Under the pieces are notes generated by a model. The model had not been told where the DNA came from, did no database searches, and was given only the letters and a program-made list of their open reading frames with translations. DNA of 39,781 bases from Candidatus Rokuibacteriota bacterium (lineage in GTDB: Bacteria; Methylomirabilota; Methylomirabilia; Rokubacteriales; CSP1-6). This document shows positions 40 to 32,116 of this stretch, in pieces. Made by a program: the position numbers and the translations under genes. Positions within the stretch are counted from its first letter, which is position 1; every line of letters starts with the position of its first letter. The DNA lies in assembly GCA_050731715.1 (NCBI GenBank), contig JBOHPM010000001.1, positions 1-39,781 of the forward strand. Direction: 5' to 3'.

Positions 40-73
40 ACGGGCACCCCGGAGTTGCCTCCGAAGTGCCCGT
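40..73 (-). terminator. Hairpin just downstream of the displaced tRNA-Lys 3' half (candidate native tRNA terminator)
   Basis: Compound inverted repeat ACGGGCAC-C-CGGAG-TTGC-CTCCG-AA-GTGCCCGT. On the minus strand it lies 6 nt after the CCA end at 80 and is followed by TTTCGTG. The U-tract is short, so this is only a moderate intrinsic-terminator candidate. Confidence 0.35.
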
Positions 74-79
74 TCTCAT

Positions 80-124
80 TGGTGGGCCGTCAAGGACTCG
101 AACCTTGGACCCGCTGATTAAGAG
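80..124 (-). repeat. attL: 45-nt 3' half of a tRNA-Lys(CUU) gene (anticodon loop to CCA), with no 5' half
   Basis: Minus-strand reading is CTCTTAATCAGCGGGTCCAAGGTTCGAGTCCTTGACGGCCCACCA. This gives anticodon loop CUCUUAA, T arm CAAGG-TTCGAGT-CCTTG, acceptor 3' strand ACGGCCC, discriminator A and CCA. Sequence 5' of it cannot pair with the acceptor strand or form a D arm. It matches 32008-32052 at 42 of 45 positions. Confidence 0.75.
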
Positions 125-257: not shown

Positions 258-704
258 ATGGGGAGGGTGCGCACCGAACCTCTGCTGCTGGCTTCAGGCA
301 TCTCGAGGCCCTTGAGTGCTTCGACGTGGCGCCGTCGCATCTCCGGAGTCGCTGTCGTACACTACCCTCGCATCAACTCCGGAGAGGCAGGTAATCGAGT
401 GGGGCCGTCTGACTGGCTCGGCGTCCTGAGGTTCGCGCAGGATCTCTTCACGGGGCGCGCCCGCCGAAAGCGCGACGAACTGAAGGGTCGCATCGTCGTG
501 GCCATGCGGCGCGCTCAGAGTCGGAATCCAGCACCGCTCATCTTCTCTCCGGAAAGGATCGCCGGGATGCTCGACATCCCCCCGTCCGAGCTGGTCGTCG
601 CGTTGGAAGAGCTTGAGCGCGAGCGCCGGGTATTCTGCGACAACCGAGTCGGAGACTACAGCCTCGATCCGATGCCGTGGACACAGCCGCGCTCGATCCC
701 GTGA
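258..704 (+). CDS. Hypothetical small protein, start uncertain (an internal ATG at 504 would give a 66-aa product)
   Basis: ORF in the track. The C-terminal part (MRRAQSRNPAPLIFSPERIAGMLDIPPSELVVALEELERERRVF...) looks like a small winged-helix or HTH protein, while the N-terminal part is low complexity. Its end overlaps the GTG start of the next ORF. Confidence 0.3.
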   Translation: MGRVRTEPLLLASGISRPLSASTWRRRISGVAVVHYPRINSGEAGNRVGPSDWLGVLRFAQDLFTGRARRKRDELKGRIVVAMRRAQSRNPAPLIFSPERIAGMLDIPPSELVVALEELERERRVFCDNRVGDYSLDPMPWTQPRSIP

Positions 705-1996
705 TCGCCGCCGGACTGGGCACCGTTCCGACCCGAACCTTCACCTTCATCGTCGACCCGGTCTACGCTCCCGAGCTCGCCGCGCCTGAGCACTCCGGCC
801 TACGAGCCCTGATCGAGGACCTGCGGGATCTCAGTCCTGCTATCACCGCGCGACTTCTTATGCCATCCACCGAGGGTGTTGATGCTGACCAACTGGGCGA
901 CCTGTTCGAGCCGGTCGGCGCGCTTGCCGACGCTGCCCCTCTCAGCCTTTCGCGCTACATGGCCGAGGAGGACCGCGTTCGTCTCGAGACGGCAAATCAG
1001 ACCGACCACTCTCTGAGATTGTTCGGGATCGCCACTGCCAACCGTGCGGACGGTGTTGTCACCGACGCCGCGCCCCTGGTCGGAACGCGCTATCCCCTGC
1101 TCCAGCACCACCGCATCCGGTTGATCCCTACGGCCGAGCTTCTCGACGTGGTCGAAGTCTGCGCCCACGGCCACTCGGTCTTCTGGTCGGGCTTGAATCC
1201 GGTGCGCTCTCTTACGCCAGACATCTACTACCAGTGGACGCACTGGAAGGGTCGCCGGCTCGCGAACTGGTTCTCGACGGTCCAGGGCCGGCTCAACGAG
1301 GACACGCGCGAGGCGCTCCGCAACGTCATCCTCAATCGCTATCCTTTCATTCTCTACTCGCGCGACATGGTGCGCTTCCACGAACTTCAGCTCGATCACT
1401 TCAGTCGTCGGGGCCTCTGGCGACGATTCAGCACTCCCCTCGGGTACTTCATGACAAACTTCTATCTACACCTGTGGGGGATGCTCGAGCACCTCACCAT
1501 GATCGCGAAGTACACTCTCGGCCTCACGGTCCGCGACCGCGACTGCGGCATCAAGAGCGAAAGGTTGCTGACGGCGCTCAGGGAGCAGCGGCCCGGGTTG
1601 GTCGCTTTTCTGGAGCGGCAGACGATCGCCGACTGGATCGCGGCGATGGCCGACGCGCGCCACGCCGCCGCACACCGATCGATGCTCTTACCGACCGACA
1701 TCGTCGCCGAAACAGAGGAATCCCGCAAGACCGACGACGAGATTCGGGCAATCCTCCACCGCGAAGACCCCGCGCTCTACCGCCTCTTCTCAGGGGCCAT
1801 GCTCGAGGAGTTCGAGCGCCAGTCCATCGAGCACTGGCGATTTGAGCGGCTGAGAAAGATCGCGACCAACGCCGTGGTGGTAAGCAAGGAGGCCGGCGGG
1901 TACATCCGCTTCCCGGTGGACAGCGTGGACCACGATCTACAAATGTTGAACGGCGCGATCGACGCCTTCCTGGTGGCCCTCTTCGGCTCCAGGTAA
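677..1996 (+). CDS. Hypothetical protein, 439 aa, with an Rx4H (HEPN-like) motif near the C-terminus
   Basis: Long ORF with balanced, W/Y/F-containing composition. The motif ADARHAAAHRS (R-H-A-A-A-H) fits the HEPN Rx4-6H signature. GTG start at 677, so the true start is uncertain. I recognise no other family. Confidence 0.6.
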   Translation: MDTAALDPVIAAGLGTVPTRTFTFIVDPVYAPELAAPEHSGLRALIEDLRDLSPAITARLLMPSTEGVDADQLGDLFEPVGALADAAPLSLSRYMAEEDRVRLETANQTDHSLRLFGIATANRADGVVTDAAPLVGTRYPLLQHHRIRLIPTAELLDVVEVCAHGHSVFWSGLNPVRSLTPDIYYQWTHWKGRRLANWFSTVQGRLNEDTREALRNVILNRYPFILYSRDMVRFHELQLDHFSRRGLWRRFSTPLGYFMTNFYLHLWGMLEHLTMIAKYTLGLTVRDRDCGIKSERLLTALREQRPGLVAFLERQTIADWIAAMADARHAAAHRSMLLPTDIVAETEESRKTDDEIRAILHREDPALYRLFSGAMLEEFERQSIEHWRFERLRKIATNAVVVSKEAGGYIRFPVDSVDHDLQMLNGAIDAFLVALFGSR

Positions 1997-2347: not shown

Positions 2348-2836
2348 TCAACGCCGAGGGCGGCGGCGTTTTCCCGCCCCTGGCGCTGCGCGCTCCAGTG
2401 CTGCCGCATCTGATCGCTCTTGTGCCCGTCCCCGCTGAAACGCGTCAAACCATCCCGCCCACGTCGCGACGGTCTTCGGTGACCGTTCTCCGTAGGCTTC
2501 GATGTGACGCTCGAAATGATCCCGATAGCGCCGGCCATCCGCACCCTCGGGGTGGCGCATCAAGAAAATCTCCAAACTCGCCCGTGCTGCGACCTCCCAC
2601 GTCTCCATGCTGTCGTATTCGGGCGCAGCACCGAAAAGGTACTCGACCCGAACCTCGAGCCAGAGCGCGAGACGGACCGCATCATGAGGTCGCCCCGGTG
2701 GGGACGCATGCGTCTTGCGCTGTACCCAGCCGCGCGCGAATCCCTGAGCGATGTAGTCGCCCATCGTGAAGCCGGGTCCCTTGACGGTCAGAAGATGGTT
2801 GACGCGGGACGGAATGAAGGCGACGGGTCCGACCAT
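2348..2836 (-). CDS. Hypothetical protein, 162 aa
   Basis: ATG at 2836 is preceded by AGGAGA (complement of 2837-2842). Composition is protein-like (MVGPVAFIPSRVNHLLTVKGPGFTMGDYIAQGF...WEVAARASLEIFLMRHPEG...). No family recognised. Confidence 0.6.
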   Translation of the reverse strand: MVGPVAFIPSRVNHLLTVKGPGFTMGDYIAQGFARGWVQRKTHASPPGRPHDAVRLALWLEVRVEYLFGAAPEYDSMETWEVAARASLEIFLMRHPEGADGRRYRDHFERHIEAYGERSPKTVATWAGWFDAFQRGRAQERSDAAALERAAPGAGKRRRPRR

Positions 2837-2854
2837 TCTCCTATTGTGCGTCTG

Positions 2855-2872
2855 CTACACTTTTTAGTGTAG
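2855..2872. promoter_or_regulatory. Perfect 7-bp inverted repeat CTACACT-TTTT-AGTGTAG upstream of the 2348-2836 gene (operator candidate)
   Basis: It sits 19 nt upstream of the ATG at 2836 in an unusually AT-rich patch (2840-2960). That patch contains further GTGTAG/CTACA-type half sites (GCACTACATGGTG, GTGTAGCGG). Confidence 0.35.
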
Positions 2873-3030
2873 TAGCCACACAAATAACTTGACGCCGGGT
2901 TGTGGAGTCGCGTAGCGTACTGCACTACATGGTGTATGTGCTGTGTAGCGGGTTTCGGCTTGACGCTCCGTGCGGATTGTCGGTAAATCGAGGTCCCCGG
3001 TATAGGGGGTCGATACACTGAACTAGGGTT

Positions 3031-3103
3031 TGGTGGAGGGCGGGGGGATCGAACCCCGTCAGCCGGTTTTAAAGACCGGCCCCATCGCCAGATGACGCCC
3101 CCC
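3031..3103 (-). tRNA. Compact non-canonical tRNA with anticodon UUA (ochre-suppressor type), CCA encoded
   Basis: RNA is GGGGGGCGUCAUCUGGCGAUGGGGCCGGUCUUUAAAACCGGCUGACGGGGUUCGAUCCCCCCGCCCUCCACCA. The acceptor is GGGGGGC/GCCCUCC with one G:U pair. It extends to 8 bp if the T stem is drawn as 4 bp. The D arm is CAUC-UGGC-GAUG with only a 4-nt loop. The anticodon stem is 6 bp (GCCGGU/ACCGGC) with loop CUUUAAA. The T loop is UUCGAUC. Hand-folded. Confidence 0.6.
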
Positions 3104-3140
3104 ATCAAGACGCGGAGTCGAGACGGCGCGGTGGCTTGAG

Positions 3141-3235
3141 AGGCGGGAGCCGGATTCGAACCGGCGCGGACGTGCTGGAACACGTCTTCTCCTTGCAAGG
3201 GAGACGCCCTTCGGCCTAGCTCGGGCCATCCCGCC
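3141..3235 (-). tRNA. Class II (long variable arm, tRNA-Ser-like) tRNA with anticodon UGC, no encoded CCA, discriminator U
   Basis: RNA is GGCGGGAUGGCCCGAGCUAGGCCGAAGGGCGUCUCCCUUGCAAGGAGAAGACGUGUUCCAGCACGUCCGCGCCGGUUCGAAUCCGGCUCCCGCCU. The acceptor is GGCGGGA/UCCCGCC and the D stem GCCC/GGGC. The anticodon stem is UCUCC/GGAGA with loop CUUGCAA. The variable arm is 6 bp (GACGUG/CACGUC) and the T arm is GCCGG-UUCGAAU-CCGGC. Hand-folded. Confidence 0.65.
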
Positions 3236-3320
3236 GTCTCGACCGAGCGGCGTAAGGAGAAACGCCACCCGTCACCACGCATCAATATCTTGTGGTGAAC
3301 GCGACTCTAGCACGCAGAAT

Positions 3321-3503
3321 CTAGGGGTCGTCAAGAAAAAAGGTGCCCACCGGCTGTCCACAACGCCAGTTACCCACGTTGGCACGATCGAAGCGTGCAA
3401 GTCCTGCAAGACGCGAGCATTCCGTCGCCTCGCTCGGAGTGACGCCGATCGTCCGGGCCCTGTAGCGGATAGATCCCGCCGCGTGCGAGGCCAAGATCGT
3501 CAT
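3321..3503 (-). CDS. Small hypothetical ORF (60 aa) translationally coupled to the upstream gene
   Basis: Its ATG at 3503 overlaps the TGA of the 3500-4279 gene (ATGA). No recognisable family. Its 3' end overlaps a possible tRNA promoter region, so it may not be real. Confidence 0.3.
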   Translation of the reverse strand: MTILASHAAGSIRYRARTIGVTPSEATECSRLAGLARFDRANVGNWRCGQPVGTFFLDDP

Positions 3504-4279
3504 CCTTCGGCTGGCCCATCCAACTCGTCGCCCGGCAGGACAACCGGCGGCACTTTATCGGTGTCCGGCAAGCTGGCGAGCGCCGTCTTGACGATGTTCT
3601 CCATGCGGACGCGAGCGTCGCCCAAGTCGATCTTGAAGAACGCTGCCCAACGGGTAACGACGTCGGCGAAGGCCGTCGACGCGATGGTTACCACTTCGGA
3701 GACCATCGTGTCACTCGGACCGCTGCTGGCAATGAACCCCCGGGCGGTGACCGCCAGAAAGGACTCGAAGCTCGCCGCGTCGGAGTGCTCATAGATCGAA
3801 CCATGCCGGTAGGCCAGGTTGTAGAAGTTCTGGGTGTCGCTCCTGGCAGCGCGGTCGGCGAGGTTCAACCACTTCTTGGCAAGCTCTTCTTCTTCGCCCC
3901 AGTTAACGGTGTCGGCTTGCAGGGTTCGTCCGAGCGACGTTGCCCACCTGCGGAGCTGAATGCGCGCGGACGCAAGCCATACGCGGACCCGCTCCGGAGT
4001 GTCCGCAGCCGTGAGGTACGCAAGGTCAATGCAGAGGTTCGTAAGGCTGCGTGCCAGGATCATGGCGTCCTCGCCGTAGCCCTCGCGTGCAACAAGTAAG
4101 ATCGCGCCGAACGTCTTTCGAGCCTTCGCGTGCAGGAAGACGACAGCCAGCCTACCGCCGCCCTTCGCGGAGATGGGGTGCGCGGCGCGGATGTCCCGAT
4201 CAAGAGCAGCGAGGTCTTCGCAGGCCAGAAGCGCCGTGCCGTACCTCTCTCGGATTGCTGCTCGGACGTCGTTCGTCAT
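3500..4279 (-). CDS. Hypothetical protein, DUF5677-like (start moved to the internal ATG)
   Basis: ATG at 4279 is preceded by GAGGAAG with a 4-nt spacer. The track ORF extends to 4354, but those extra residues are R-rich. The helical protein contains ...FGAILLVAREGYGEDAMILARSLTNLCIDLAYL..., which resembles the DUF5677 core as I remember it. Confidence 0.65.
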   Translation of the reverse strand: MTNDVRAAIRERYGTALLACEDLAALDRDIRAAHPISAKGGGRLAVVFLHAKARKTFGAILLVAREGYGEDAMILARSLTNLCIDLAYLTAADTPERVRVWLASARIQLRRWATSLGRTLQADTVNWGEEEELAKKWLNLADRAARSDTQNFYNLAYRHGSIYEHSDAASFESFLAVTARGFIASSGPSDTMVSEVVTIASTAFADVVTRWAAFFKIDLGDARVRMENIVKTALASLPDTDKVPPVVLPGDELDGPAEG

Positions 4280-4512
4280 CGTGCTTCCTCGGCTTCGCGC
4301 GCGGCGTTGCAGTCGAACGGATCGTCCAGCGGTATCACGAGTATATCGTCGCAATCACGCCGCGGTGTCAACCTCTGGTGAACTGCTCTCGGGCTGATCG
4401 CGACGTGTCCTCCTCGATGCTCCTCCGGGTCTCACACGTTGGGCATTCTAGCGGACGCCTCTGGGGAAGATCGTCGCCGCCGCTGCTGTCGGTTGACGGG
4501 TGCCGGAGGATC

Positions 4513-5028
4513 TCATGTTCGGAATCGCACTGGTGGGGAGGGACCAAATCGTGATGACGAGGGAGGATTCCGCTGTTTGTCCGACCGCTTGCCGGTTTCC
4601 TCGATGGCCTGCGCGAATCGCTTCAGGTCACCGTCCCAATCATACGCGGGGAACTCGACGGTAGGCGGCACGGCCGGCTTCGGCCCGCGGAACGGGGAAG
4701 CCGCCATTCCGCGCTGGTCCTTCAGATGGTGAATGTAGATGCCGAGGAGGCCGTTGCTCCGCGCTATCGACTGCTCGATCTCGTACTGCACGTACGGGCG
4801 GTAGGCCGTTTGAGGTCCGATGAGGACCACGGTGACCGAAGTATTCTGAAGCTTCGCTCGGATCAACAGCTTGATCTCATCGTCGCCCTTGCGCTTGGCC
4901 TCCTCGTACTCGGAATGGTCGAAGAACCCGGCCACGTCGGGGCCGGCGACCACGTTCGCGTTGCGCACCTGGTTGGCACGCCAGATGTCGTTTTCGAAAT
5001 GGAACGAGAAGAACACTCGACGGGCCAT
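4513..5028 (-). CDS. TIR-like domain protein (ThsB-like / DUF1863 type)
   Basis: The N-terminus MARRVFFSFHFENDIWRANQVRN...VTVVLIGPQTAYRPYVQYEIEQSI is the characteristic TIR-like (MTH538/ThsB) pattern. It is the last gene of the 7943-to-4513 operon, 4 nt after the preceding gene. Confidence 0.85.
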   Translation of the reverse strand: MARRVFFSFHFENDIWRANQVRNANVVAGPDVAGFFDHSEYEEAKRKGDDEIKLLIRAKLQNTSVTVVLIGPQTAYRPYVQYEIEQSIARSNGLLGIYIHHLKDQRGMAASPFRGPKPAVPPTVEFPAYDWDGDLKRFAQAIEETGKRSDKQRNPPSSSRFGPSPPVRFRT

Positions 5029-5032
5029 AGGC

Positions 5033-5449
5033 TCATCTCCGGGAGAGGGTAATGATGATCGCGACGATCACGACGGCGATCGCCAGGTGAAGATAGAGAA
5101 CCGTTGGACGAAAAAGCGTCCCGAGCCAGCCTCGCAATCTTTTCCGCCGAGAGAGGTGCGGAGGGGCCAGCGAGTACGTCTTCCTCGTGCCGGCGCACAC
5201 TTCGTCGTAGACGGCCCGAAACCGTCGTTCCTGCCAGAGGTAGTAGGCGTCCAGGGCCCAGAAGATGGCGCTCGGGAAGAGCGCGAGCAGCGCGTACGAC
5301 CGCCGATGGGTATTGACAGCGAGCGCCATGAGCGCCGCCACGAGCGTGACCGACCAGCCTTTCAGGGCGAAGGAGTTCTGACCCATCCGGCTGATCACGC
5401 CCTGGACGAGCTTGAGGTGCTCGAGGCACGAGTACTCGTCGGCGTGCAC
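5033..5449 (-). CDS. Small membrane protein (predicted 3 TM segments), unknown family
   Basis: Hydrophobic segments are GWSVTLVAALMALAV, ALLALFPSAIFWALDAYYLW and VLYLHLAIAVVIVAIIITL. It is sandwiched between the two TIR-like genes with 4-nt gaps on each side. Confidence 0.75.
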   Translation of the reverse strand: MHADEYSCLEHLKLVQGVISRMGQNSFALKGWSVTLVAALMALAVNTHRRSYALLALFPSAIFWALDAYYLWQERRFRAVYDEVCAGTRKTYSLAPPHLSRRKRLRGWLGTLFRPTVLYLHLAIAVVIVAIIITLSRR

Positions 5450-5453
5450 GCTT

Positions 5454-6137
5454 TTAGCCGAGCAGCTTCTTCAGGTTTTCCCAGTCCCACTGATAGAGCC
5501 GCCCGGCGTTGGGGACGGGGGTATACGTCCCATCCCGGTATCCGATCATCTGCGCGATCGTGATCCCTTCCTCGCGGGCCATCCGCACCTCCTTCAGAAC
5601 GCCGGGCGCCCCGTATGTGTACCGGCCCACCATGACAAGAACGAGATCGGAACGGCTGATCGCCACCCGGGCCTTGTCCTCCCAGGCCTTCATCGGCGCC
5701 GCTTCCTTCAATGAGCTATCGATGACCTCGAACGGCGAGTCCGGGTTTCGAGCCTGGCCGATGATGAAGTCCTTCAGGACCTTGTCGTTGTCGAAATCGA
5801 AGCTGACGAACACGCGCTTCTTGCCCGTGCGCCTCTCGGGCCGCGAGGTGACATCCAACCCACGCGGAGTCTCAGTCGCGGTGGAACCGGATGCTGCGAT
5901 GGCTAGCGCCGCCAGTGTGCCGAGCCCGAGCAAGGCACCCCAGTTCACCTGTGGGGCGGGAAAGTACGGTCGCAGTTCAGGATGTTCGCCCGCGCGTAAC
6001 CAGACACCACGAACTGGGTCATAGAGCTGGTGCTCCGGGCGCAATTGCCCAGAGAGCGCGAGCTGCCGCCACTCGCTGATCGACCGGTACACCAGAGGTG
6101 GGCCGTATGGCCCGGGCAGGAAGCCAGACATGGCCAA
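5454..6137 (-). CDS. GYF_2-like N-terminal domain + TM helix + TIR-like (ThsB-like) domain protein
   Basis: The N-terminus ...YRSISEWRQLALSGQLRPEHQLYDPVRGVWLRAGEHPELRPYF is GYF_2/DUF4339-like. The TM helix is WGALLGLGTLAALAIAA. The C-terminus KKRVFVSFDFDNDKVLKDFIIGQ...LVLVMVGRYTYGAPGVLKEVRMA is TIR-like. Its start codon directly abuts the stop of the PIN gene (6137/6138). Confidence 0.85.
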   Translation of the reverse strand: MAMSGFLPGPYGPPLVYRSISEWRQLALSGQLRPEHQLYDPVRGVWLRAGEHPELRPYFPAPQVNWGALLGLGTLAALAIAASGSTATETPRGLDVTSRPERRTGKKRVFVSFDFDNDKVLKDFIIGQARNPDSPFEVIDSSLKEAAPMKAWEDKARVAISRSDLVLVMVGRYTYGAPGVLKEVRMAREEGITIAQMIGYRDGTYTPVPNAGRLYQWDWENLKKLLG

Positions 6138-6659
6138 TCACTCCTCCTTTATGAGCTCGTCGAACGGTCGCGGATCCATCTCGAAGCGGTTGTCTCGGAG
6201 TTGCACGCGCAGCGTCTCCGCCAGCGCCGTGGTGATCGCTCCGGCCCTGATCGCCGTCACCAGCGCGCCGACAGTGTCCAGCAAGTAGTTCTCCCCAAGC
6301 CGCGCGAACAGCTCCCGCCGGAAACGCCCCTTCTCATCGGCGGCAATCACCCACCGCCGGCTGACAGCGAGAGCAAGGGACGCGGACTCTCCATCTCCAA
6401 GAAATCGCCGAAACTCGTCGTACAGCAGGATCTCTCCCGACTCGGTAATCTCGATCTCCGTCACGACGCCGCTCTCGATCGCGGCCCGAAGTCGGCGACG
6501 CTGGTCCTCGTACTGGATCTCGGCGCTCACGTGGTTGACAACGTGGAACCGGAACTGCGGGAGCCCGCCCAGGATGTCCATCCGGTCCAGCACGAGGAAG
6601 TTGATGAGGAAGCTGGAGTCGGTGACCACCAGCAGGCGCCCATCGCCCCCTCGTTCCAC
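6138..6659 (-). CDS. PIN-domain protein (DUF3368-like)
   Basis: RLLVVTDSSFLINFLVLDRMDILGGL... shows the N-terminal acidic residue pattern of PIN nucleases. It lies 3 nt downstream of the XRE-ImmA gene. Confidence 0.75.
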   Translation of the reverse strand: MERGGDGRLLVVTDSSFLINFLVLDRMDILGGLPQFRFHVVNHVSAEIQYEDQRRRLRAAIESGVVTEIEITESGEILLYDEFRRFLGDGESASLALAVSRRWVIAADEKGRFRRELFARLGENYLLDTVGALVTAIRAGAITTALAETLRVQLRDNRFEMDPRPFDELIKEE

Positions 6660-6662
6660 CCC

Positions 6663-7943
6663 TCATGCACGCGGGACGTGGGCCCCTCGCCCGCTCTGTC
6701 CCGGCTCCGGCTCTTGCTTCACTGTCGCAACCAGCGCCTTGAACTCGCCCGACTGAACCTGCGCCAGATCGCAGAGCTCCCTCAGCTTCGCCCGGCTGAT
6801 GACCTCCCGGCGCAGCGCCTCAACCGCGAGCAGCACGAGCTGGTGCCGGAACGGCATGTGCCCAGGCGCCTTCGCGTCGGGCTCGGGCCCAAGGAAGCGC
6901 ATGACGTTGGCGGCGGCCTCCTTCTGCTGGACGAGCCCGCCCCGCTCCTCCTCGGTAACGAGCTTGAGATTCAGCAGCCGGTAGAGTGCCGTCTCGTAGC
7001 TCACGCTGAAGTGGTGGGCGAGGTGGGCGACGTCGTAGACCTGGATGTCCTGCGAGTGGGCCTCGCGGCGCCGCTGCCCCTCCACCACGGCGGTCTCGTC
7101 GTACGCCCGGAGCTGGCTCCGGCTCTGCTCGCCCTTGCCCAGCCGCCGGACGAAGGCGCGGACGCCCCCCTCGGGCATCAGAAAGGCCGCGGCAAAGGCA
7201 TTGGCCCGTACCTCGGGCAGCTCCTCGCGGTTTTCGGCCCGGCTCACGAGCCCTCCGCGGTCGTGGTCGACGAGGACATGGCAGTACTCGTGCGCGCACG
7301 AGAACAGCCGGCGCCGCGGCGGGTGATCCTCGTTCACGATGATCGACGGGCCGTACCGGGTGTCGCTCAGGAACAGGCCGGAGATCGTCTCGGACAACGA
7401 CATCTCGATGAACCGGACGCCCTGCGCCTCGAGGAGCTCGGCGAGGTTCGTCAGGGGATCTTCGCCCAGGCGAAGGCGCGCCCGCTCGAGCTCGGCCAAC
7501 CGCTCGCCCTGCCGGATGGCGTCCCAGCGCGTGCGCATGAGTGGGGTGTTGTAGTTGACATCGTAGACGCGGTCCTGGTCGATGCCGAGGAGCGTCTCCA
7601 GGTTCGTGTACTCCCGGCAGAGCTTGACGCACTCGGCGACGGCACCGGCCCGCTCACGGTCGCCCGCGAGCTGGGGGTCCGCCCGGAACAGTGCCGTAAG
7701 GGGATCGCGCTGGGCCTCGTCGAACTCTTCTGCCAGCAGTTCACCAAGCTCGCGCCGATAGATCTCGGCGAGCCGCACGAGGTGGAGGCTGTTCGGCGCC
7801 TTGGCGCCGGCTTCGAAATGCGCGAGGGCGCCGCGCGAGATGCCAAGCTGATCGGCGACGTCCTGCTGGGCGAGCCCCACCGCTTCCCTGGCGCTCTTCA
7901 AACGACGGCCCAACTCCTCCTTGTCCAAGGGCACTTGCGCCAC
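6663..7943 (-). CDS. XRE-family HTH fused to ImmA/IrrE (COG2856, M78) zinc metallopeptidase
   Basis: The HTH is LGRRLKSAREAVGLAQQDVADQLGISRGALAHFEAG. The HExxH motif is in FSCAHEYCHVLVDH. There is a GTG at 7943. A second in-frame GTG at 7934 has better spacing to AGGAGG and may be the true start. Confidence 0.9.
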   Translation of the reverse strand: MAQVPLDKEELGRRLKSAREAVGLAQQDVADQLGISRGALAHFEAGAKAPNSLHLVRLAEIYRRELGELLAEEFDEAQRDPLTALFRADPQLAGDRERAGAVAECVKLCREYTNLETLLGIDQDRVYDVNYNTPLMRTRWDAIRQGERLAELERARLRLGEDPLTNLAELLEAQGVRFIEMSLSETISGLFLSDTRYGPSIIVNEDHPPRRRLFSCAHEYCHVLVDHDRGGLVSRAENREELPEVRANAFAAAFLMPEGGVRAFVRRLGKGEQSRSQLRAYDETAVVEGQRRREAHSQDIQVYDVAHLAHHFSVSYETALYRLLNLKLVTEEERGGLVQQKEAAANVMRFLGPEPDAKAPGHMPFRHQLVLLAVEALRREVISRAKLRELCDLAQVQSGEFKALVATVKQEPEPGQSGRGAHVPRA

Positions 7944-13300: not shown

Positions 13301-13610
13301 CCTCCAGAAGGCCCTCGCCGACCGGGCTGAGCAGGAAATCCAGACGATCACTGCCGTGCTCACCGAGCTGCGTCAGAGCATCCTCGCCGAGATCGAGGCC
13401 CCGTCCGTTGAGCAGCTGGAACTGTTCTCGTCCGCCGAGCGCGATCAGCTCGACCGGAACCTCGCGAGCCTCCGCGCCCGCGCCGAGCGCATCCCAGCAG
13501 AGATCGCGGAGGAGACCGAAGCTATCCGCGCGCGCTTCGCGCGCCCGGAGCCCCGGCTCTTCCCGGTGGCCGTGACGTTCCTCGTGCCCGAGCGGTTCGC
13601 CAGGGGTTGA
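10383..13610 (+). CDS. drmD: DISARM class 1 SNF2-family helicase DrmD
   Basis: SNF2 motifs present are LLIADDVGLGKTIEAG (I), LVVDEAHNV (II), LLATDAASEGIDLQ (V) and WNPNRMEQRNGRIDRHGQ (VI). It is followed by a translationally overlapped large N6-MTase and then drmA/B/C. The start is uncertain (GTG 10383 or ATG 10422). Confidence 0.9.
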   Translation: MGRRSFPNDNTSLMPADDTALPELGQLAEVRQRRWIVTDVRASTLMPSPLEPPSANGHHHLVSLASVEDDGLGEELQFIWELEPGARVHERVSLPEPTGFDTSHRLDAFLDAVRWGASSTADVRTLQAPFRSGIEIEDYQLDPVVRAIQMPRVNLLIADDVGLGKTIEAGLVIQELIVRHRARRVLIVCPASLQIKWQTEMREKFGLDFRIVDADLLKQLRRQRGLHANPWTHFPRLIASLDFVKRERPLRLLREALPAPGQPAYPRRFDFLVVDEAHNVAPSGRGRYATDSLRTHAIRTIAPHAEHKLFVSATPHNGYLESFTALLELLDNQRFARSVKPDRQQLNAVMVRRLKSELPPRWDGTPRFPGRVIEPIEVDYTDAERAVHAALQRYSMLRQERARDHVERFASEFVLLLLKKRLFSSPAAFQKTLSQHEQSITAARRRRSALETPTLGVLRRIVDKVDEEYGDDSAADDAVDEAVDGASRLFSDLSGEERDLLQSMREAAATAVGRPDSKAHELIRWLNATLRPAGTWSHERVIIFTEYRATQSWLHERLAMEGLAGNDRLLTLYGGMDDKTRETVKAAFQADPATSPVRILLATDAASEGIDLQRYCSRLVHYEIPWNPNRMEQRNGRIDRHGQRAECVLVYHFVGKGYRERAEGDALPTGQLEGDLEFLARATIKIDRIRQDLGTVGPVIAQQVEEAMLGRRQRLDTEGAERRAEPVRAMLRFERRLREQIAEHLEQLQETRRELRLSPDNVQAVVEIALALAGQPPLREATLPGVWPDPTAQRTRCPVFHLPALGGTWALCSEGLQHPHTGVVRPITFDHAIAGDRDDVVLAHLNHRLVQMCLRLLRGEVWASHRRKRLHRATARVVPDTALDTPAMIGHARLVVVGGDSQRLHEEVITTGGRLREGRFARMNVGEVASALAAAGDTEPAEAVKQRLLDLWPRHADALVAALEARMRDRTDGLQKALADRAEQEIQTITAVLTELRQSILAEIEAPSVEQLELFSSAERDQLDRNLASLRARAERIPAEIAEETEAIRARFARPEPRLFPVAVTFLVPERFARG

Positions 13611-17716: not shown

Positions 17717-17728
17717 CCGAGGGGCCAT

Positions 17729-28680: not shown

Positions 28681-28934
28681 GACCATAAGGCGTCTCCACA
28701 CTCGGCCTCGGCCGGTGTCAACGCCAACTGAGCGTGGCCGAAGGTGAATTCGTCCGAGATCGGCGCGCGTCGATATCCAACGCGCGGTGCGCACCGATCG
28801 CATCGTCTCGGATAGCAGCCGCACCCGCCGCCGGCGGATTGTGGGCGGGGCCTGAACCGCCGATGGTCGACCGAGGTGGCCGTTGTCCCGACTTGCGAAG
28901 AAACGCGGCTGCCCACTTCTGTCACGGGCCCCGA

Positions 28935-30772: not shown

Positions 30773-32116
30773 ATGGCCTCGATCCGCCGCCGACGGCGCG
30801 CCAGGGGCGACGTGTGGGTGGTGGACTACCGCGACGGCGCGGGCGTCCGCCGGTGGGCGACCTTCCGCAGCCGGCGCGAGGCAGAGGACGCGCTCGCGCG
30901 GATCATCCCCGAGTCACGCCAGGCGGCCCCGCGCGTGGTCGACCGCGACATCACCCTCGACGACTGCGCCGCGCGGTGGCTCGCCCAGGTCGCGACCGAG
31001 ATCAAGCCGCGCACGCTCGACTCGTACAAGAGGAACCTCGATCGCCACGTGCTGCCAGCTTTCGGCCGGTTCAAGCTCCGCGAGCTTCACCGCGGGCACC
31101 TCAGGGACTTCCTCGCGCGCAAGCGAGGCACCGGTCTCGGCAAGAACTCGGTGCGCCTCATCCGCGCCGTGCTGTCGGTCCTGCTCTCCGATGCCGTCGA
31201 CGACGGGATCATCCTCGCGAACCCGGCGCTGCAGCTGCGCGGCTCGCGCCGCCGGCGTCCCGACTCCATCAGCCAGGCCGAGCGGCAGAAGAAGATTCGC
31301 CCGATGGACCACAGCCAGCTCGCGGCCTTCCTGTCCGCGGCCCAGACCGATCCGCGACACTACCCGCTCTTCCTGCTGCTCGCGCGCACCGGGCTACGTC
31401 CCGGCGAGGCCTACGCACTCCAGTGGGGCGACCTCGACTTCCGCGGGCGCGAGATCCGCGTGGAGCGCGCGCTGAGCGCCGGCGCGATCGAGACGCCGAA
31501 GACGGGACAGACAAGGACTGTGGACATGAGCGAGCAGCTCACGCGCACGCTCCGTCGCCTCGAGATCGACCGCATGGTCGAGAAACCCCGCCGCGGGTGG
31601 CAGGAGATGCCGCCGTGGGTCTTCTGCACGGAGGCCGGAACGCCGCTCGACGAGAGCCGCGTGAGGAAGGCGTTCGCCGGGGCGCTCAAGCGCGCGAAGC
31701 TGCCGGGCTTCCGCCTCTACGACCTCCGCCACACGTTCGCGTCGTTGCTCCTGGCCCAGAACGCGCCCATCACCTACGTGAGCGCGCAGCTCGGGCACAC
31801 GGACGCGACGACGACGCTCCGGTGGTACGCGCGCTGGCTGCCGCGCACGGACACGCGCGCGGTGGACATGCTGGACGACGGCTGGGTCAGCCCGGTTGAG
31901 CGTCTTGGTGAGGCTCAGGTCGGGACAGTTGGTAGCCAATTGGTAGCCAATCCGGGGTCTGAAGACGAATCAGGCGCTCCGGATGACTCCGAAGCGCCTG
32001 ATTTGTTTGGTGGGCCGTCAGGGACTCGAACCCCGGACCCGCTGATTAAGAGGCGCGCTGGCGTCCTGTCCCGCGTTGTCCTGAATCATCACAAATCAGT
32101 TACTTGCGCGGCATAG
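30773..32116 (+). CDS. int: Tyrosine site-specific integrase of island 1
   Basis: The N-terminus is VWVVDYRDGAGVRRWATFRSRREAEDAL. The catalytic region has TGLRPGEAYALQW (R), LYDLRHTFASLLL (H-x-x-R) and GHTDATTTLRWYARW (H...Y). The ORF runs on through the arm repeats and the attR core to a stop at 32116. Confidence 0.9.
   Translation: MASIRRRRRARGDVWVVDYRDGAGVRRWATFRSRREAEDALARIIPESRQAAPRVVDRDITLDDCAARWLAQVATEIKPRTLDSYKRNLDRHVLPAFGRFKLRELHRGHLRDFLARKRGTGLGKNSVRLIRAVLSVLLSDAVDDGIILANPALQLRGSRRRRPDSISQAERQKKIRPMDHSQLAAFLSAAQTDPRHYPLFLLLARTGLRPGEAYALQWGDLDFRGREIRVERALSAGAIETPKTGQTRTVDMSEQLTRTLRRLEIDRMVEKPRRGWQEMPPWVFCTEAGTPLDESRVRKAFAGALKRAKLPGFRLYDLRHTFASLLLAQNAPITYVSAQLGHTDATTTLRWYARWLPRTDTRAVDMLDDGWVSPVERLGEAQVGTVGSQLVANPGSEDESGAPDDSEAPDLFGGPSGTRTPDPLIKRRAGVLSRVVLNHHKSVTCAA
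31927..31950. repeat. Tandem 2 x TTGGTAGCCAA (candidate integrase arm-type binding site, right arm)
   Basis: Identical 24-mer to 230-253, same orientation. It lies 57 nt left of the attR core and inside the integrase 3' tail. Confidence 0.5.
32008..32052 (-). repeat. attR: second 45-nt tRNA-Lys(CUU) 3' half, not joined to a 5' half
   Basis: Minus-strand reading is CTCTTAATCAGCGGGTCCGGGGTTCGAGTCCCTGACGGCCCACCA. It matches attL at 42 of 45 positions, and the differences are confined to the T stem, which stays paired. The flanking GCGCGCTGGCGTCC... cannot complete the anticodon stem, D arm or acceptor stem. Confidence 0.75.

What the first reader, a model, noticed from the sequence alone, without database searches (positions are those of the whole stretch)
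3031..3235. Two adjacent island-borne tRNAs with reassigned anticodons: a tRNA-Ser-like body with UGC (Ala codon GCA) and a compact tRNA with UUA (ochre stop)
The 95-nt gene has every class II feature: a 6-bp variable arm, a GCCC/GGGC D stem and a UUCGAAU T loop. These would normally direct SerRS, which does not read the anticodon. Its anticodon loop is CUUGCAA, one base away from the canonical Ser-UGA loop CUUGAAA, so it would read Ala GCA codons. It lacks the G3:U70 Ala identity pair. The 73-nt neighbour has loop CUUUAAA, one base away from the Lys-UUU loop CUUUUAA, which gives an ochre-reading UUA anticodon. It combines this with a 6-bp anticodon stem, a 4-nt D loop and an acceptor/T arrangement that can be drawn as 8/4. 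These traits recall tRNA-Pyl, tRNA-Sec and allo-tRNA-type oddities. A mistranslating or suppressor tRNA pair carried on a defence island could act as a toxin-like or anti-phage (or phage-derived counter-defence) device.
Basis: partly seen in the sequence, partly recalled or inferred. Interest (0 to 1): 0.65.

Follow-up and report, generated by a model that had tools for sequence, protein, structure and literature searches.

The report
Conserved mismatched tRNA pair operon
A mobile defence island carries a conserved two-gene tRNA operon, one serine-type tRNA that reads an alanine codon and one alanine-type tRNA that reads stop codons, next to a DNA-binding regulator; together they look built to mistranslate on purpose, which would be an unusual RNA-only weapon or switch.

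Summary
Both genes lie on the minus strand. One is a 95-nt class II tRNA with anticodon UGC (3235..3141). The other is a 73-nt compact tRNA with anticodon UUA (3103..3031).

It sits on an 8/4 acceptor/T branch. It is therefore most likely an alanine-inserting nonsense suppressor, not Lys-like.

The pair is not a one-off. Two other metagenomic lineages (L189, L192) have the same layout: promoter, tRNA1, tRNA2, about 200 nt, then a divergent XRE-type HTH gene.
- The tRNAs are 83-96% identical, against 46-60% for the flanks.
- Stem changes are compensatory, and G3·U70 is invariant.
- The compact tRNA's anticodon switches between UUA and CUA, both nonsense.

The module sits in a 32-kb element integrated at tRNA-Lys and packed with defence genes.

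Best reading: a regulated pair of identity/anticodon-mismatched tRNAs (Ser at GCA, Ala at UAA/UAG) that acts as a mistranslation effector. Charging, expression and any defence role are untested.

One relative has a 6-nt anticodon loop in tRNA1, which leaves a non-decoding role open. The closest precedent is the irregular suppressor tRNA polycistrons of Mukai et al. (2017). I rate it a new variant of a known kind.

The parts
3304..3334 (-). Putative promoter of the tRNA operon. The -35 element TTGACG is at 3334..3329, followed by a 19-nt spacer ending in TGC (extended -10). The -10 element TAGAGT is at 3309..3304.
   Evidence: It is 87-94% identical in L189 and L192, whereas the leader just downstream is 57-60% identical. 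A similar element lies upstream of the HTH homologue in L187. The consensus scan missed it because the spacer is 19 nt. Calling it a promoter is my inference.
3236..3303 (-). 5' leader of the transcript. It contains the hairpin CACCAC-N13-GTGGTG. It also contains the strand GTCGAGAC, which pairs with the trailer of tRNA1.
   Evidence: The leader/trailer helix is kept in all three variants, with one A-U to U-A compensatory change.
3141..3235 (-). tRNA1: a 95-nt class II, tRNASer-like tRNA with a 7/5 branch, anticodon UGC, C3-G70, U73 and no encoded CCA.
   Evidence: ARAGORN. Rfam tRNA, 48.5 bits. Cloverleaf fold. It is 91-92% identical in L189 and L192, with one compensatory pair in the anticodon stem. 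Its D arm and acceptor resemble canonical tRNASer.
3104..3140 (-). Inter-tRNA spacer (37 nt). It holds GTCTCGAC, which is complementary to the leader, and U at position -1 before tRNA2.
   Evidence: It is 76-84% identical across variants. RNAalifold pairs it with the leader.
3031..3103 (-). tRNA2: a 73-nt compact tRNA with an 8/4 branch and anticodon UUA. It has G1:C72, G2:C71, G3·U70, G4:C69 and A73, and CCA is encoded at 3033..3031.
   Evidence: ARAGORN tRNA-Stop. Rfam tRNA 30.6 bits and tRNA-Sec 44.6 bits. The minimum-energy fold is the cloverleaf. All 22 pairs are kept, 3 with changes on both sides, and G3·U70 is invariant. Relatives carry UUA (L192) or CUA (L189).
2837..3030 (-). Intergenic region with two GTCAAG boxes and tandem inverted repeats of the form TTGTG-N9-CACAA (about 2843..2886). 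The repeats overlap a CACAAT -10-like box and the AGGAG ribosome-binding site of the HTH gene.
   Evidence: The sequence is poorly conserved (46-54%), but the repeat architecture recurs in L187, L189, L191, L192 and L194. Reading the repeats as operators is my inference.
2348..2836 (-). Gene for a 162-aa protein (P0001): a divergent XRE-type HTH domain followed by a three-helix C-terminal domain.
   Evidence: Close homologues are 53-80% identical, with P0012 a more distant 35%. There are 42 clusters among 1.84 billion representatives. HTH_3, HTH_31 or HTH_26 is hit by 11 of 40 family members. The AlphaFold2 model has pLDDT 93.6 and is all-helical. No significant PDB fold match was found; the top weak hits are phage or plasmid repressors. 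The gene follows the tRNA pair in three lineages.
677..1996 (+). Gene for a 439-aa protein of unknown family, convergent with the HTH gene. It may be linked to the module.
   Evidence: It has a homologue next to the module in L192 (34% identity over 201 aa, E = 3e-27). It has no Pfam, NCBIfam, PADLOC or PDB match. It contains an RHAAAH motif; reading that as HEPN-like is my own unverified view.
56..124 (-). Left copy of the direct repeat that bounds the island. It is a 3' fragment of a tRNA-Lys(CUU) gene.
   Evidence: It is 86% identical to 31984-32052. The sequence reads as anticodon loop CUCUUAA, T arm, acceptor and CCA, with no 5' half.
30773..32116 (+). Tyrosine integrase gene. Its 3' end overlaps the right copy of the tRNA-Lys fragment repeat (31984-32052). 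Together with the left copy it bounds a ~32-kb integrative element that carries the tRNA module.
   Evidence: Pfam Phage_integrase and the repeats.

Best explanation
The locus is a conserved dicistronic operon of two deliberately mismatched tRNAs, linked to a divergent XRE-type HTH regulator gene. It rides on a ~32-kb integrative defence island.

tRNA1 has a tRNASer-type class II body: a long variable arm, a Ser-like D arm and acceptor, U73 and no G3:U70. Its anticodon is the alanine anticodon UGC. SerRS ignores the anticodon, so tRNA1 should be serylated and put Ser at GCA (and perhaps other GCN) codons.

tRNA2 is a compact 8/4 tRNA. Its acceptor end carries the whole AlaRS identity set and an encoded CCA. 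Its anticodon is a nonsense anticodon, UUA here and CUA in a relative. AlaRS also ignores the anticodon, so tRNA2 should be alanylated and read UAA/UAG as Ala.

When expressed from their shared promoter, the two RNAs would cause Ala-to-Ser substitution and stop-codon read-through. I commit to the reading that this is a mistranslation effector of the island. It would be either held in check or induced through the neighbouring regulator, like a toxic RNA or abortive-infection arm. Alternatively it could be tolerated by the 65% G+C host, because GCA and UAA are rare there, while hitting A+T-richer invaders harder.

Shown: the genes, their folds, the identity nucleotides, conservation, covariation, the linkage to the HTH gene and the island context.
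Inferred: the promoter, co-transcription, charging by SerRS and AlaRS, use on the ribosome, regulation by the HTH protein and any role in defence.
For: 1. Both genes are detected by ARAGORN and Rfam, and the cloverleaf is the minimum-energy fold.
2. The same promoter-tRNA1-tRNA2-HTH layout occurs in two further lineages: L188/L189/L190 and L192/L193. Their HTH proteins are 71% and 54% identical to the window's.
3. Selection acts on the RNAs. The tRNAs are 83-96% identical and the promoter 87-94%, against 57-60% for the leader and 46-54% for the downstream spacer. All modelled pairs stay paired, and 3 + 1 pairs have compensatory double changes.
4. G3·U70, G1:C72, G2:C71, G4:C69 and A73 are invariant in tRNA2. 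The only anticodon difference is UUA versus CUA, both nonsense.
5. Published tests show that 8/4 and 9/3 tRNAs with G3:U70, and natural anticodons GCG or UUA, insert Ala in E. coli once their anticodon is converted to the amber CUA. They also show that Ser-identity allo-tRNAs with Leu anticodons insert Ser and are toxic. The authors take a long variable arm with G73 or U73 to indicate Ser identity (PMC5389517).
6. Engineered tRNAPyl scaffolds given Ala identity are efficient nonsense suppressors (PMC11662663).
7. The D arm and acceptor of tRNA1 resemble canonical tRNASer rather than tRNALeu.
8. In the window's 27 genes, GCA makes up 9.1% of Ala codons. Stop codons are TGA 19, TAG 5 and TAA 3.
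9. Context. The window holds TIR/ThsB-like, PDC-M50, AbiE, DISARM-like, GmrSD and SIR2 genes. HEPN_AbiV lies near the module in L188, and GmrSD plus HEPN lie beside the HTH homologue in L195.
Against: - There are no expression, aminoacylation or phenotype data. All members come from metagenome assemblies and the host is unknown.
- Only three sequence variants exist, so covariation statistics are weak: 17/500 and 170/500 shuffles reach the observed score.
- In L192/L193, tRNA1 has lost one base of the anticodon stem. That leaves a 6-nt loop, or a 4-bp stem. This is hard to reconcile with normal decoding, yet the rest of the gene is conserved.
- U73 is not the canonical G73 of tRNASer.
- The module's own genes avoid neither GCA nor TAA/TAG. 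The window's HTH gene has 6 GCA among 23 Ala codons, the 439-aa gene ends in TAA, and the L192 HTH gene ends in TAG.
- The HTH-type inverted repeats lie in front of the HTH gene, not clearly at the tRNA promoter, so control of the tRNAs by this protein is unproven.
- Two close HTH homologues (L187, L194) and one distant one (L196) have no tRNA pair.
Confidence: 0.45

Rival explanations
1. The RNAs are tRNA-shaped but do not act on the ribosome. They would serve as decoys, antitoxins or sensors for tRNA-directed enzymes of the island or of phages, such as HEPN-type RNases, nucleotidyltransferases or ligases. Anticodon loops would be recognition handles rather than decoders.
For: - tRNA1 of L192/L193 has a 6-nt anticodon loop but is otherwise conserved.
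- HEPN genes lie near the module in L188 (HEPN_AbiV) and near the HTH homologue in L195 (RiboL-PSP HEPN).
- The 439-aa neighbour, which has a homologue in L192, carries an RHAAAH motif.
- AbiEii, a nucleotidyltransferase toxin family, is in the island.
- Mukai et al. found irregular tRNAs near toxin-antitoxin genes that were charged but not used in translation, and suggested regulatory roles.
- The precursor can form a conserved leader/trailer helix that competes with the tRNA1 acceptor stem.
Against: - A complete AlaRS identity set, an encoded CCA, canonical T and D loop contacts and a strict nonsense anticodon (UUA or CUA) are what a working suppressor needs. A decoy would not need them.
- No single nuclease family is shared by all loci.
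- The HEPN reading of the 439-aa protein is unverified.
Confidence: 0.2
2. The tRNAs are helper genes of a mobile element or phage that uses a changed genetic code. They would be needed to translate element genes with in-frame TAA/TAG codons, or to time their expression, as in stop-codon-recoded phages.
For: - The module lies on an integrative element with an integrase and att repeats.
- Suppressor tRNAs are common in large phages: 120 or more viral contigs match a CUA/UUA tRNA pattern.
- The 439-aa gene ends in TAA and has 32 further sense codons in frame after it.
Against: - All 27 genes called in the window are intact under the standard code, with ordinary stops.
- No relative of the HTH protein or of the tRNAs was found in 2.9 million viral contigs or in GenBank phages and plasmids.
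- This reading does not explain a Ser-type tRNA for an Ala codon.
Confidence: 0.08
3. The tRNAs are dedicated amino-acid donors for a non-ribosomal, aminoacyl-tRNA-dependent enzyme, such as a Fem/MurM-type transferase, a cyclodipeptide synthase or a PEARL-type ligase. Odd anticodons would keep them out of translation.
For: - Ala-tRNA and Ser-tRNA are the usual donors for such transferases (established knowledge of MurM and FemX, not tested here).
- The two bodies have Ser and Ala identity.
Against: - No such enzyme family was detected in the window or the related loci.
- UGC is a normal sense anticodon and would not keep tRNA1 off the ribosome.
Confidence: 0.05
4. The genes are decaying pseudogenes or integration-site leftovers with no function.
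For: - The island does contain tRNA fragments used as att sites.
- tRNA1 of L192 has a damaged anticodon arm.
- tRNA2 only just passes the general tRNA threshold, at 30.6 bits against 29.
Against: - Both genes are full-length cloverleafs.
- They are far better conserved than their flanks, across lineages whose neighbouring protein is only 54-71% identical.
- Stem changes are compensatory.
- The promoter is conserved.
Confidence: 0.03

Closest known systems
Allo-tRNAs and 'polycistrons of irregular tRNAs' near toxin-antitoxin genes (Mukai et al., Nucleic Acids Res 2017, PMC5389517)
   Same: - A 12-bp acceptor branch split 8/4.
- A tRNASec-like long D stem with a very small loop.
- Anticodons that do not fit the body, including UUA.
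- Members with G3:U70 that insert Ala in E. coli.
- Ser-identity members that mistranslate and are toxic.
- Clustering of several odd tRNAs next to toxin-antitoxin or defence genes, known only from soil and sediment metagenomes.
   Different: - tRNA2 has no long variable arm, which is a defining trait of allo-tRNA.
- tRNA1 has an ordinary 7/5 branch.
- The fixed pairing of a UGC tRNA with a nonsense tRNA and an XRE-type gene is not described there.
- The published examples are ascribed to Acidobacteria, Clostridia and Proteobacteria, and the host here is unknown.
- Sequence homology to their tRNA0/1/2 could not be checked, because the supplement is not held.
PASS-tRNAs: engineered tRNAPyl scaffolds given alanine identity (Awawdeh et al., Nucleic Acids Res 2024, PMC11662663)
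   Same: A compact tRNA core combined with the AlaRS acceptor-stem identity set and a nonsense anticodon. The core has a minimal D loop, a short variable loop and fewer linker bases. The result is efficient Ala insertion at stop codons.
   Different: - PASS-tRNAs are man-made, whereas tRNA2 is natural.
- tRNA2 has an 8/4 branch.
- tRNA2 keeps GG in the D loop and a canonical UUCGAUC T loop.
tRNASec (Rfam RF01852)
   Same: The best-scoring Rfam family for tRNA2 (44.6 bits). Shared traits are an extended acceptor stem, a 6-bp anticodon stem and a D stem closed by a tetraloop.
   Different: - The score is below the gathering score of 47.
- There is no long variable arm.
- The branch has 12 bp, not 13.
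- The discriminator is A73, not G73.
- The anticodon is UUA/CUA, not UCA.
tRNAPyl
   Same: [quoted passage not shown]
   Different: - tRNA2 has GG in the D loop and a TΨC-type T loop.
- It has A73 and G3·U70.
- It has an 8-bp acceptor stem.
- No pyl genes lie nearby.
tRNAProX/tRNAProA mistranslating tRNAs of Streptomyces (PMC10404621)
   Same: They are natural bacterial tRNAs whose identity elements and anticodon disagree, giving programmed mistranslation in high-G+C bacteria (title and abstract only).
   Different: - The amino acids and codons differ (Pro at Ala, Thr or Asn codons).
- Those tRNAs are paired with a dedicated synthetase paralogue.
- Here no synthetase gene is linked, and the host SerRS and AlaRS would do the charging.
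tmRNA tRNA-like domain and canonical tRNAAla
   Same: The T arm plus 3' acceptor strand ...GGGGUUCGAUNCCCC(C)NNCCUCCA(CCA) of tRNA2 is of the type found at tmRNA 3' ends. The metagenome scan with that pattern returned almost only tmRNA genes. Canonical tRNAAla genes score 32-33 bits on the tRNA2 model.
   Different: tRNA2 has a complete anticodon arm with a nonsense anticodon and no mRNA-like part. ARAGORN calls it a tRNA, not a tmRNA.

Membership tests
Canonical bacterial tRNASer (for tRNA1) | Class II body with a long variable arm | tested here: met
   A 6-7 bp arm GACGUG/CACGUC appears in the Rfam alignment and in RNAfold, and is invariant in three variants.
Canonical bacterial tRNASer (for tRNA1) | Ser-type D arm and acceptor sequence (UGGCCGAG...GAAGGC; G1-C72, G2-C71) | tested here: met
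   By-eye comparison with tRNASer, tRNALeu and other class II genes collected from fetched loci. tRNA1 has UGGCCCGAG...CGAAGGGC, close to tRNASer and unlike tRNALeu. This is qualitative only.
Canonical bacterial tRNASer (for tRNA1) | Serine anticodon (NGA or GCU) | tested here: not met
   The anticodon is UGC in loop CUUGCAA. That loop is one base from the Ser-UGA loop CUUGAAA.
Canonical bacterial tRNASer (for tRNA1) | Discriminator G73 | tested here: not met
   It is U73 in all three variants. Mukai et al. accept G73 or U73 with a long variable arm as Ser-like.
Canonical bacterial tRNASer (for tRNA1) | Serylation by SerRS | not testable with these tools
   Needs an aminoacylation assay or mass spectrometry.
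AlaRS substrates (tRNAAla identity) (for tRNA2) | G3·U70 wobble pair | tested here: met
   Columns 3 and 69 are G·U in all three variants. The same holds in the Bacteroidota analogue L065.
AlaRS substrates (tRNAAla identity) (for tRNA2) | A73, G1:C72, G2:C71, G4:C69 | tested here: met
   These are invariant in the three variants.
AlaRS substrates (tRNAAla identity) (for tRNA2) | Alanylation by AlaRS | not testable with these tools
   There is only indirect support. 8/4 and 9/3 tRNAs with G3:U70 insert Ala in E. coli (PMC5389517).
Allo-tRNA (Mukai 2017) (for tRNA2) | 12-bp acceptor branch split 8/4 or 9/3 | tested here: met
   There are 8 acceptor pairs and 4 T-stem pairs. A fifth T pair would be C·C, while G8 pairs with C.
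Allo-tRNA (Mukai 2017) (for tRNA2) | Long variable arm, as in tRNASer and tRNASec | tested here: not met
   The variable region is only 3-4 nt (GAC/GAA).
Allo-tRNA (Mukai 2017) (for tRNA2) | Long D stem closed by a tetraloop | tested here: met
   The D stem has 4-5 bp and the loop is UGGC, UGGGC or UGGCU. The stem covaries.
tRNASec (RF01852) (for tRNA2) | Covariance-model score at or above the gathering score (47 bits) | tested here: not met
   The score is 44.6 bits in the window and 36.8-42 bits in relatives.
tRNASec (RF01852) (for tRNA2) | UCA anticodon, long variable arm, 13-bp branch and G73 | tested here: not met
   tRNA2 has UUA/CUA, a 3-4 nt variable loop, an 8/4 branch (12 bp) and A73.
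tRNAPyl (for tRNA2) | Compact core: 6-bp anticodon stem, 3-nt variable loop, one base between acceptor and D stems, small D loop | tested here: met
   The list of defining features comes from my own knowledge of tRNAPyl and from the legend quoted.
tRNAPyl (for tRNA2) | CUA anticodon; no G18G19 or TΨC motifs; pylS/pylBCD genes nearby | tested here: not met
   The window has UUA; CUA occurs only in L189. The D loop contains GG and the T loop is UUCGAUC. No pyl genes appear among the annotated neighbours.
Irregular tRNA polycistrons near toxin-antitoxin loci (Mukai 2017, Fig. 4) | Two or more non-canonical tRNAs in one transcription unit | tested here: inconclusive
   The two genes are 37 nt apart, on the same strand, behind one conserved promoter-like element. 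No promoter or terminator was found between them by the simple consensus scan, which also missed the operon's own inferred promoter. No RNA data are available.
Irregular tRNA polycistrons near toxin-antitoxin loci (Mukai 2017, Fig. 4) | Neighbourhood of toxin-antitoxin or defence genes | tested here: met
   Window: AbiE, TIR/ThsB, PDC-M50, DISARM-like and GmrSD genes. L188: HEPN_AbiV.
Irregular tRNA polycistrons near toxin-antitoxin loci (Mukai 2017, Fig. 4) | Sequence relatedness to the published tRNA0/1/2 groups | not testable with these tools
   The supplementary sequences are not held.
XRE (Cro/C1) HTH regulators (for the 162-aa protein) | Match to HTH_3-type profiles | tested here: inconclusive
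   P0001 and its close relatives give no Pfam hit even at E = 10. However, 11 of 40 aligned family members hit HTH_3, best E = 4.5e-16. Foldseek gives only weak repressor hits.

The most novel reading that the evidence does not exclude
This would be a mobile, RNA-only immune or addiction effector that works by programmed mistranslation. It comprises a Ser-charged tRNA for the rare Ala codon GCA and an Ala-charged suppressor for UAA/UAG, under an XRE-type switch. Both target codons are rare in the 65% G+C host. The pair would therefore damage A+T-richer invading genomes far more than the host, which amounts to telling self from non-self by codon usage. Alternatively, it would be switched on to shut down an infected cell without needing new protein synthesis.
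Probability: 0.15. Interest if true: 0.9.

Novelty: new variant of a known kind. Interest (0 to 1): 0.72.

Why it matters
Natural tRNAs whose charging identity and anticodon disagree are rare, and their biology is almost unknown. The allo-tRNA work showed that such RNAs exist and can mistranslate in E. coli, but left their role open.

This case is a clean one.
- It is a fixed two-tRNA operon with a conserved promoter.
- It has a linked regulator gene.
- It shows a natural UUA/CUA switch.
- It sits on a defined mobile defence island.

That makes the question of what natural suppressor and missense tRNAs are for directly testable with a 600-bp construct.

If the pair is a defence or addiction effector, it would be a new class with no protein effector, acting through translation fidelity. 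Whatever its role, tRNA2 is a natural counterpart of engineered Ala-inserting nonsense suppressors. It could therefore interest people working on genetic-code expansion and suppressor-tRNA design.

Tried and rejected
1. BLAST of the tRNA region against GenBank phages and PLSDB plasmids gave no match.

2. A viral scan with the anticodon arm (GCCGGTCTNNNAAACCGGC) found only tRNATrp-like genes, tRNASer genes and chance hits.

3. The genome scan of 185,579 species representatives used GTCTTTAAAACN{7,13}GGTTCGANNCC. It mostly hit the variable arm of tRNASer(GCU). It found no copy of the window's family. It did find one analogous pair in a Bacteroidota MAG (L065) and a few ordinary tRNA(UUA) genes.

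4. The metagenome scan with the T arm and acceptor pattern was largely wasted, because it hit tmRNA 3' ends. It did show what that end resembles. The covariance model R1 found nothing new in those loci.

5. Viral scans for Ala-type UUA/CUA tRNAs found none.

6. A search for relatives of the HTH protein in viral contigs found none.

7. The first AlphaFold2 run, with 8 sequences, was unusable (pLDDT 52.8). The 40-sequence run was good, but Foldseek against the PDB gave no significant match.

8. The PDB sequence search and the Pfam and NCBIfam scans were negative for P0001 and the 439-aa protein.

9. DUF5677 against HEPN_AbiV showed no similarity, so a shared HEPN partner is not established.

10. 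I looked for att-site copies of the odd tRNAs in the window and found none. The island's att repeats are tRNA-Lys fragments instead.

11. I tested whether the module's genes avoid GCA or TAA/TAG. They do not.

12. The host taxon could not be resolved from the integrase.

13. Rejected: tRNA2 as tRNASec, tRNAPyl or Lys-like (see the membership table), and both genes as pseudogenes.
Full report
**1. What is in the sequence**

ARAGORN finds only two tRNA genes in the 39.8-kb window, and both are on the minus strand. They are tRNA(tgc) at 3235..3140 and tRNA-Stop(tta) at 3107..3032. Rfam agrees. Region 3235..3141 scores 48.5 bits on the general tRNA model. Region 3102..3035 scores 30.6 bits on that model (gathering score 29). 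Region 3104..3034 scores 44.6 bits on the tRNA-Sec model (gathering score 47).

The reverse-complement reading, the Rfam alignments and RNAfold give the following anatomy.

tRNA1 (95 nt):
- acceptor GGCGGGA/UCCCGCC, with C3-G70
- D stem GCCC/GGGC
- anticodon stem UCUCC/GGAGA and loop CUUGCAA
- variable arm GACGUG-UUCCAG-CACGUC
- T arm GCCGG-UUCGAAU-CCGGC
- discriminator U73, and no encoded CCA

tRNA2 (73 nt):
- acceptor GGGGGGCG/CGCCCUCC, 8 bp, with the third pair G·U
- one linker U
- D stem CAUC/GAUG with loop UGGC
- anticodon stem (G)GCCGGU/ACCGGC(U) and loop CUUUAAA
- variable loop GAC
- T arm GGGG-UUCGAUC-CCCC, 4 bp
- A73 and an encoded CCA

The strand is the minus strand.

**2.

Counted from the top of the acceptor stem, tRNA2 has G1:C72, G2:C71, G3·U70, G4:C69 and A73. 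This is the acceptor-stem set that defines AlaRS substrates, and AlaRS does not read the anticodon (stated in PMC11662663). A metagenome scan with the T arm and 3' acceptor strand of tRNA2 returned almost only tmRNA 3' ends, that is, the Ala-accepting tRNA-like domain. Canonical tRNAAla genes score 32-33 bits on a covariance model of tRNA2. The anticodon arm GCCGGUCUNNNAAACCGGC is otherwise that of many tRNATrp(CCA) genes. There is nothing Lys-like beyond the loop.

The D arm and acceptor of tRNA1 (UGGCCCGAG...CGAAGGGC) resemble canonical tRNASer genes collected from fetched loci, and do not resemble tRNALeu. Its loop is one base from the Ser-UGA loop.

**3. It is a conserved module, not a curiosity**

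The ORF just downstream on the same strand (2836..2348, 162 aa, AGGAG five bases before the ATG) has a small set of homologues. The contigs that carry them were fetched.
- For the 71%-identical protein (L188, L189, L190, from three different sources), the same class II tRNA(UGC) and a compact tRNA lie upstream in the same order and spacing.
- The same is true for the 54%-identical protein (L192, L193, from two sources).
- The compact tRNA reads UUA in the window and in L192, but CUA in L189. Both are nonsense anticodons.

An alignment of the whole unit shows an invariant TTGACG-N19-TAGAGT element upstream, with TGC before the -10 box. Identity to the window, given as L189/L192, is:
- promoter: 94%/87%
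- tRNA1: 91%/92%
- tRNA2: 96%/83%
- inter-tRNA spacer: 84%/76%
- leader: 60%/57%
- spacer between tRNA2 and the HTH gene: 54%/46%

All 22 modelled pairs of tRNA2 and all 27 of tRNA1 stay paired in every variant. Three pairs of tRNA2 and one pair of tRNA1 change on both sides: acceptor pair 6, two D-stem pairs and one anticodon-stem pair. G3·U70 never varies. With only three variants the shuffle controls are weak (17/500 and 170/500). However, sliding the partners destroys pairing completely. Taken together this is purifying selection on two folded RNAs and their promoter.

**4. The linked protein**

Close family members have no Pfam, NCBIfam, PADLOC or PDB sequence match. A profile search of 1.84 billion representatives found only 42 clusters. 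Of 40 aligned members, 11 hit HTH_3, HTH_31 or HTH_26. With that alignment AlphaFold2 gives a confident all-helical model (pLDDT 93.6). Foldseek finds no significant PDB match, and the best weak hits are phage or plasmid repressors. I read the protein as a divergent XRE-type HTH with a novel three-helix C-terminal domain.

In front of each gene there are tandem inverted repeats of the type TTGTG-N9-CACAA, overlapping a CACAAT box. This suggests autoregulation, which is my inference. I could not show the same site at the tRNA promoter.

The tRNA pair is confined to the close subfamily. L194 and the distant L196 lack it. L187 keeps the promoter and the HTH gene but has about 380 nt of other sequence between them.

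**5. Context**

The minus-strand cluster 7943..3500 encodes five products upstream of the tRNA promoter:
- an HTH plus M78 peptidase protein (RmrA-like)
- a PDC-S70-like protein
- a TIR-like protein
- a PDC-M50A/B pair (ThsB-type TIR)
- a DUF5677 protein

Further on lie AbiEi/AbiEii and a DISARM-like set: SNF2 helicase, MmeI-type methylase, helicase, MZB-domain protein and PLD. The DISARM-like set is interrupted by a GmrSD-Schlafen/AlbA_2 gene. Beyond it lie DUF5131, two integrases, SIR2 and a KwaB-like gene.

Direct repeats that are 3' fragments of a tRNA-Lys(CUU) gene lie at 56-124 and 31984-32052. The second overlaps the end of the integrase gene 30773-32116. The tRNA module is therefore cargo of a ~32-kb integrative element.

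Related loci also sit among defence genes: HEPN_AbiV in L188, GmrSD plus RiboL-PSP HEPN in L195, and DUF3800 in L187. The 439-aa protein convergent with the HTH gene has a homologue beside the module in L192. It carries an RHAAAH motif. Its family is unknown.

**6. How it most likely works**

SerRS and AlaRS are the two synthetases that ignore the anticodon.
- A Ser-type body with anticodon UGC should carry Ser to GCA codons, and perhaps other GCN codons.
- An Ala-type body with UUA or CUA should carry Ala to UAA/UAG.

Published experiments support each half for related odd tRNAs (PMC5389517).
- 8/4 and 9/3 tRNAs with G3:U70, tested as amber (CUA) variants, insert Ala in E. coli.
- Ser-identity allo-tRNAs with Leu anticodons insert Ser and kill the cells.
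- A long variable arm with G73 or U73 is taken as Ser identity.

Engineered compact tRNAPyl scaffolds with Ala identity are strong nonsense suppressors (PMC11662663).

In the window's 27 genes, GCA is 9.1% of Ala codons and stops are TGA 19, TAG 5 and TAA 3. The host-like codon usage would thus blunt the damage. I therefore commit to a regulated mistranslation module, either a toxic RNA effector or a codon-usage-biased weapon of the island.

Charging, ribosomal use, regulation and any defence phenotype are inferences.

**7. What argues against it, and the rivals**

- tRNA1 of L192/L193 has lost one base of the anticodon stem, giving a 6-nt loop or a 4-bp stem. This is seen in two independent assemblies, and the rest of the gene is conserved. 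It fits a non-decoding role better, such as a decoy, antitoxin or sensor for a tRNA-directed enzyme. Mukai et al. likewise found irregular tRNAs that were charged but not used in translation.
- The module's own genes do not avoid GCA or TAA/TAG.
- RNAalifold on the precursor prefers a conserved leader/trailer helix that competes with the acceptor stem of tRNA1. This could be a processing or control device.
- A recoding-helper role is unlikely, because all genes are intact under the standard code and no viral relatives exist.
- A pseudogene reading is contradicted by the conservation pattern.

**8. A possible distant analogue**

The only comparable hit among 185,579 species-representative genomes is in a low-G+C Bacteroidota MAG (L065). 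A class I tRNA(UGC) with a non-Ala acceptor is followed, 11 nt later, by a second tRNA. That tRNA has an 8/4 branch, G3·U70, A73 and anticodon UUA. It also has a 6-bp D stem with a UGGU tetraloop, and scores 44.8 bits on tRNA-Sec.

The loop and T-loop similarity is by construction of the search pattern. The architecture and the UGC neighbour are not. No HTH homologue is nearby. I treat this as a lead for a wider class, not as proof.

**9. Comparison with known kinds, and novelty**

tRNA2 fails defining features of several families.
- tRNASec: score below threshold, no long variable arm, 12-bp rather than 13-bp branch, A73, and an anticodon other than UCA.
- tRNAPyl: GG and TΨC motifs are present, A73 and G3·U70 are present, and there are no pyl genes nearby.
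- Allo-tRNA in the strict sense: no long variable arm.

It works like an Ala-charged allo-tRNA or a PASS-tRNA. tRNA1 is a tRNASer body with an Ala anticodon and U73.

I found no description of this pair, of its linkage to an XRE-type gene, or of suppressor tRNAs as defence-island cargo. The concept of irregular missense or nonsense suppressor tRNAs clustered near toxin-antitoxin genes exists (PMC5389517). I therefore rate it a new variant of a known kind.

**10. Verdict**

- Function as a mistranslation effector is plausible but unproven (confidence 0.45).
- Interest is 0.72.

Noticed in passing
window 56-124 and 31984-32052; also 200-253 and 31898-31951: Direct repeats bound a ~32-kb integrative element. 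The first pair are 3' fragments of a tRNA-Lys(CUU) gene (86% identical), and neither copy has a 5' half. The second pair share GTTGGTAGCCAATTGGTAGCCAAT. The intact tRNA-Lys is not in the window, which suggests tandem elements at one att site. A second integrase lies at 37104-38213.
   Followed up: partly
window 10383-26546: A DISARM-like gene set (SNF2 helicase, MmeI-type methylase, helicase, MZB-domain protein, PLD) has a GmrSD_N plus Schlafen/AlbA_2 gene (17729-19948) inserted in the middle.
   Followed up: no
window 28386-29700: Two to three tandem copies of a ~550-bp unit (88-100% identical pieces) lie between the DUF5131 gene and the HTH_17 excisionase-like gene. They have no clear coding signal.
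   Followed up: no
window 3500-7943 (minus strand): An operon-like cluster lies directly upstream of the tRNA promoter. It encodes an HTH plus M78 peptidase (RmrA-like), a PDC-S70-like protein, a TIR-like protein, PDC-M50A, PDC-M50B/ThsB TIR and DUF5677. The DUF5677 protein has an RHGSIYEH stretch.
   Followed up: no
window 677-1996; L192 2-760: A 439-aa protein with no family match has a homologue next to the tRNA module in L192 (34% identity). It carries an RHAAAH motif that could be a HEPN-type Rx4H site. This might be a third component of the module.
   Followed up: partly
L187 9560-10000 and 9229-9302: Here the same promoter and HTH gene flank about 380 nt that is neither tRNA nor any Rfam family. 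This stretch contains a possible 24-codon ORF, MSCALDAGGCRRSASQGAKIRGTG. About 700 nt upstream of the HTH gene lies a 74-nt class I tRNA(GCU) whose top acceptor pairs are broken.
   Followed up: partly
L065 5717-5874 (minus strand): A Bacteroidota MAG has an analogous pair. A class I tRNA(UGC) with an A1·G72 mismatch, U3-A70 and T loop UUAGAAU is followed 11 nt later by an 8/4, G3·U70, A73 tRNA(UUA). It sits next to a transposase and a RhuM gene.
   Followed up: partly
L197 2089-2163; also L214, L238, L246, L251, L252, L259, L315: tRNA arrays on IMG/VR viral contigs hold a compact Ala-type tRNA(UGC). It has loop CUUGCAA, a 4-bp T stem, a mini D arm and a G3·U70 ...CCUCCACCA end. ARAGORN does not call it. 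It may represent a phage reservoir of the compact Ala scaffold.
   Followed up: partly
L195 1-17: The contig starts with ...CCCGGGCGGCGCCA, which looks like a tRNA 3' end with CCA. It lies at the same distance upstream of the 35%-identical HTH gene as tRNA2 does elsewhere, but has a different, non-Ala acceptor. It is too short to judge.
   Followed up: no
L054 7-80 and 1057-1149; L061 1911-1985: Ordinary-looking 7/5 tRNAs with a UUA anticodon occur in Spirosoma arboris and in a Janthinobacterium MAG. The Spirosoma locus also has a 93-nt 'tRNA-Asn(GTT)' call. Natural ochre-reading tRNAs seem scattered across phyla.
   Followed up: no
window 3104-3140 with 3236-3260: The leader strand GTCGAGAC(GGC) and the trailer strand (GCC)GTCTCGAC bracket tRNA1. 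They can form a helix that competes with its acceptor stem. The helix is kept in all variants with one compensatory change, and could be a processing or gating device.
   Followed up: partly
window 2348-2836: The HTH gene uses GCA for 6 of its 23 Ala codons, against 9% in the island overall. Its relatives end in TGA, TAG or TAA without a pattern.
   Followed up: partly
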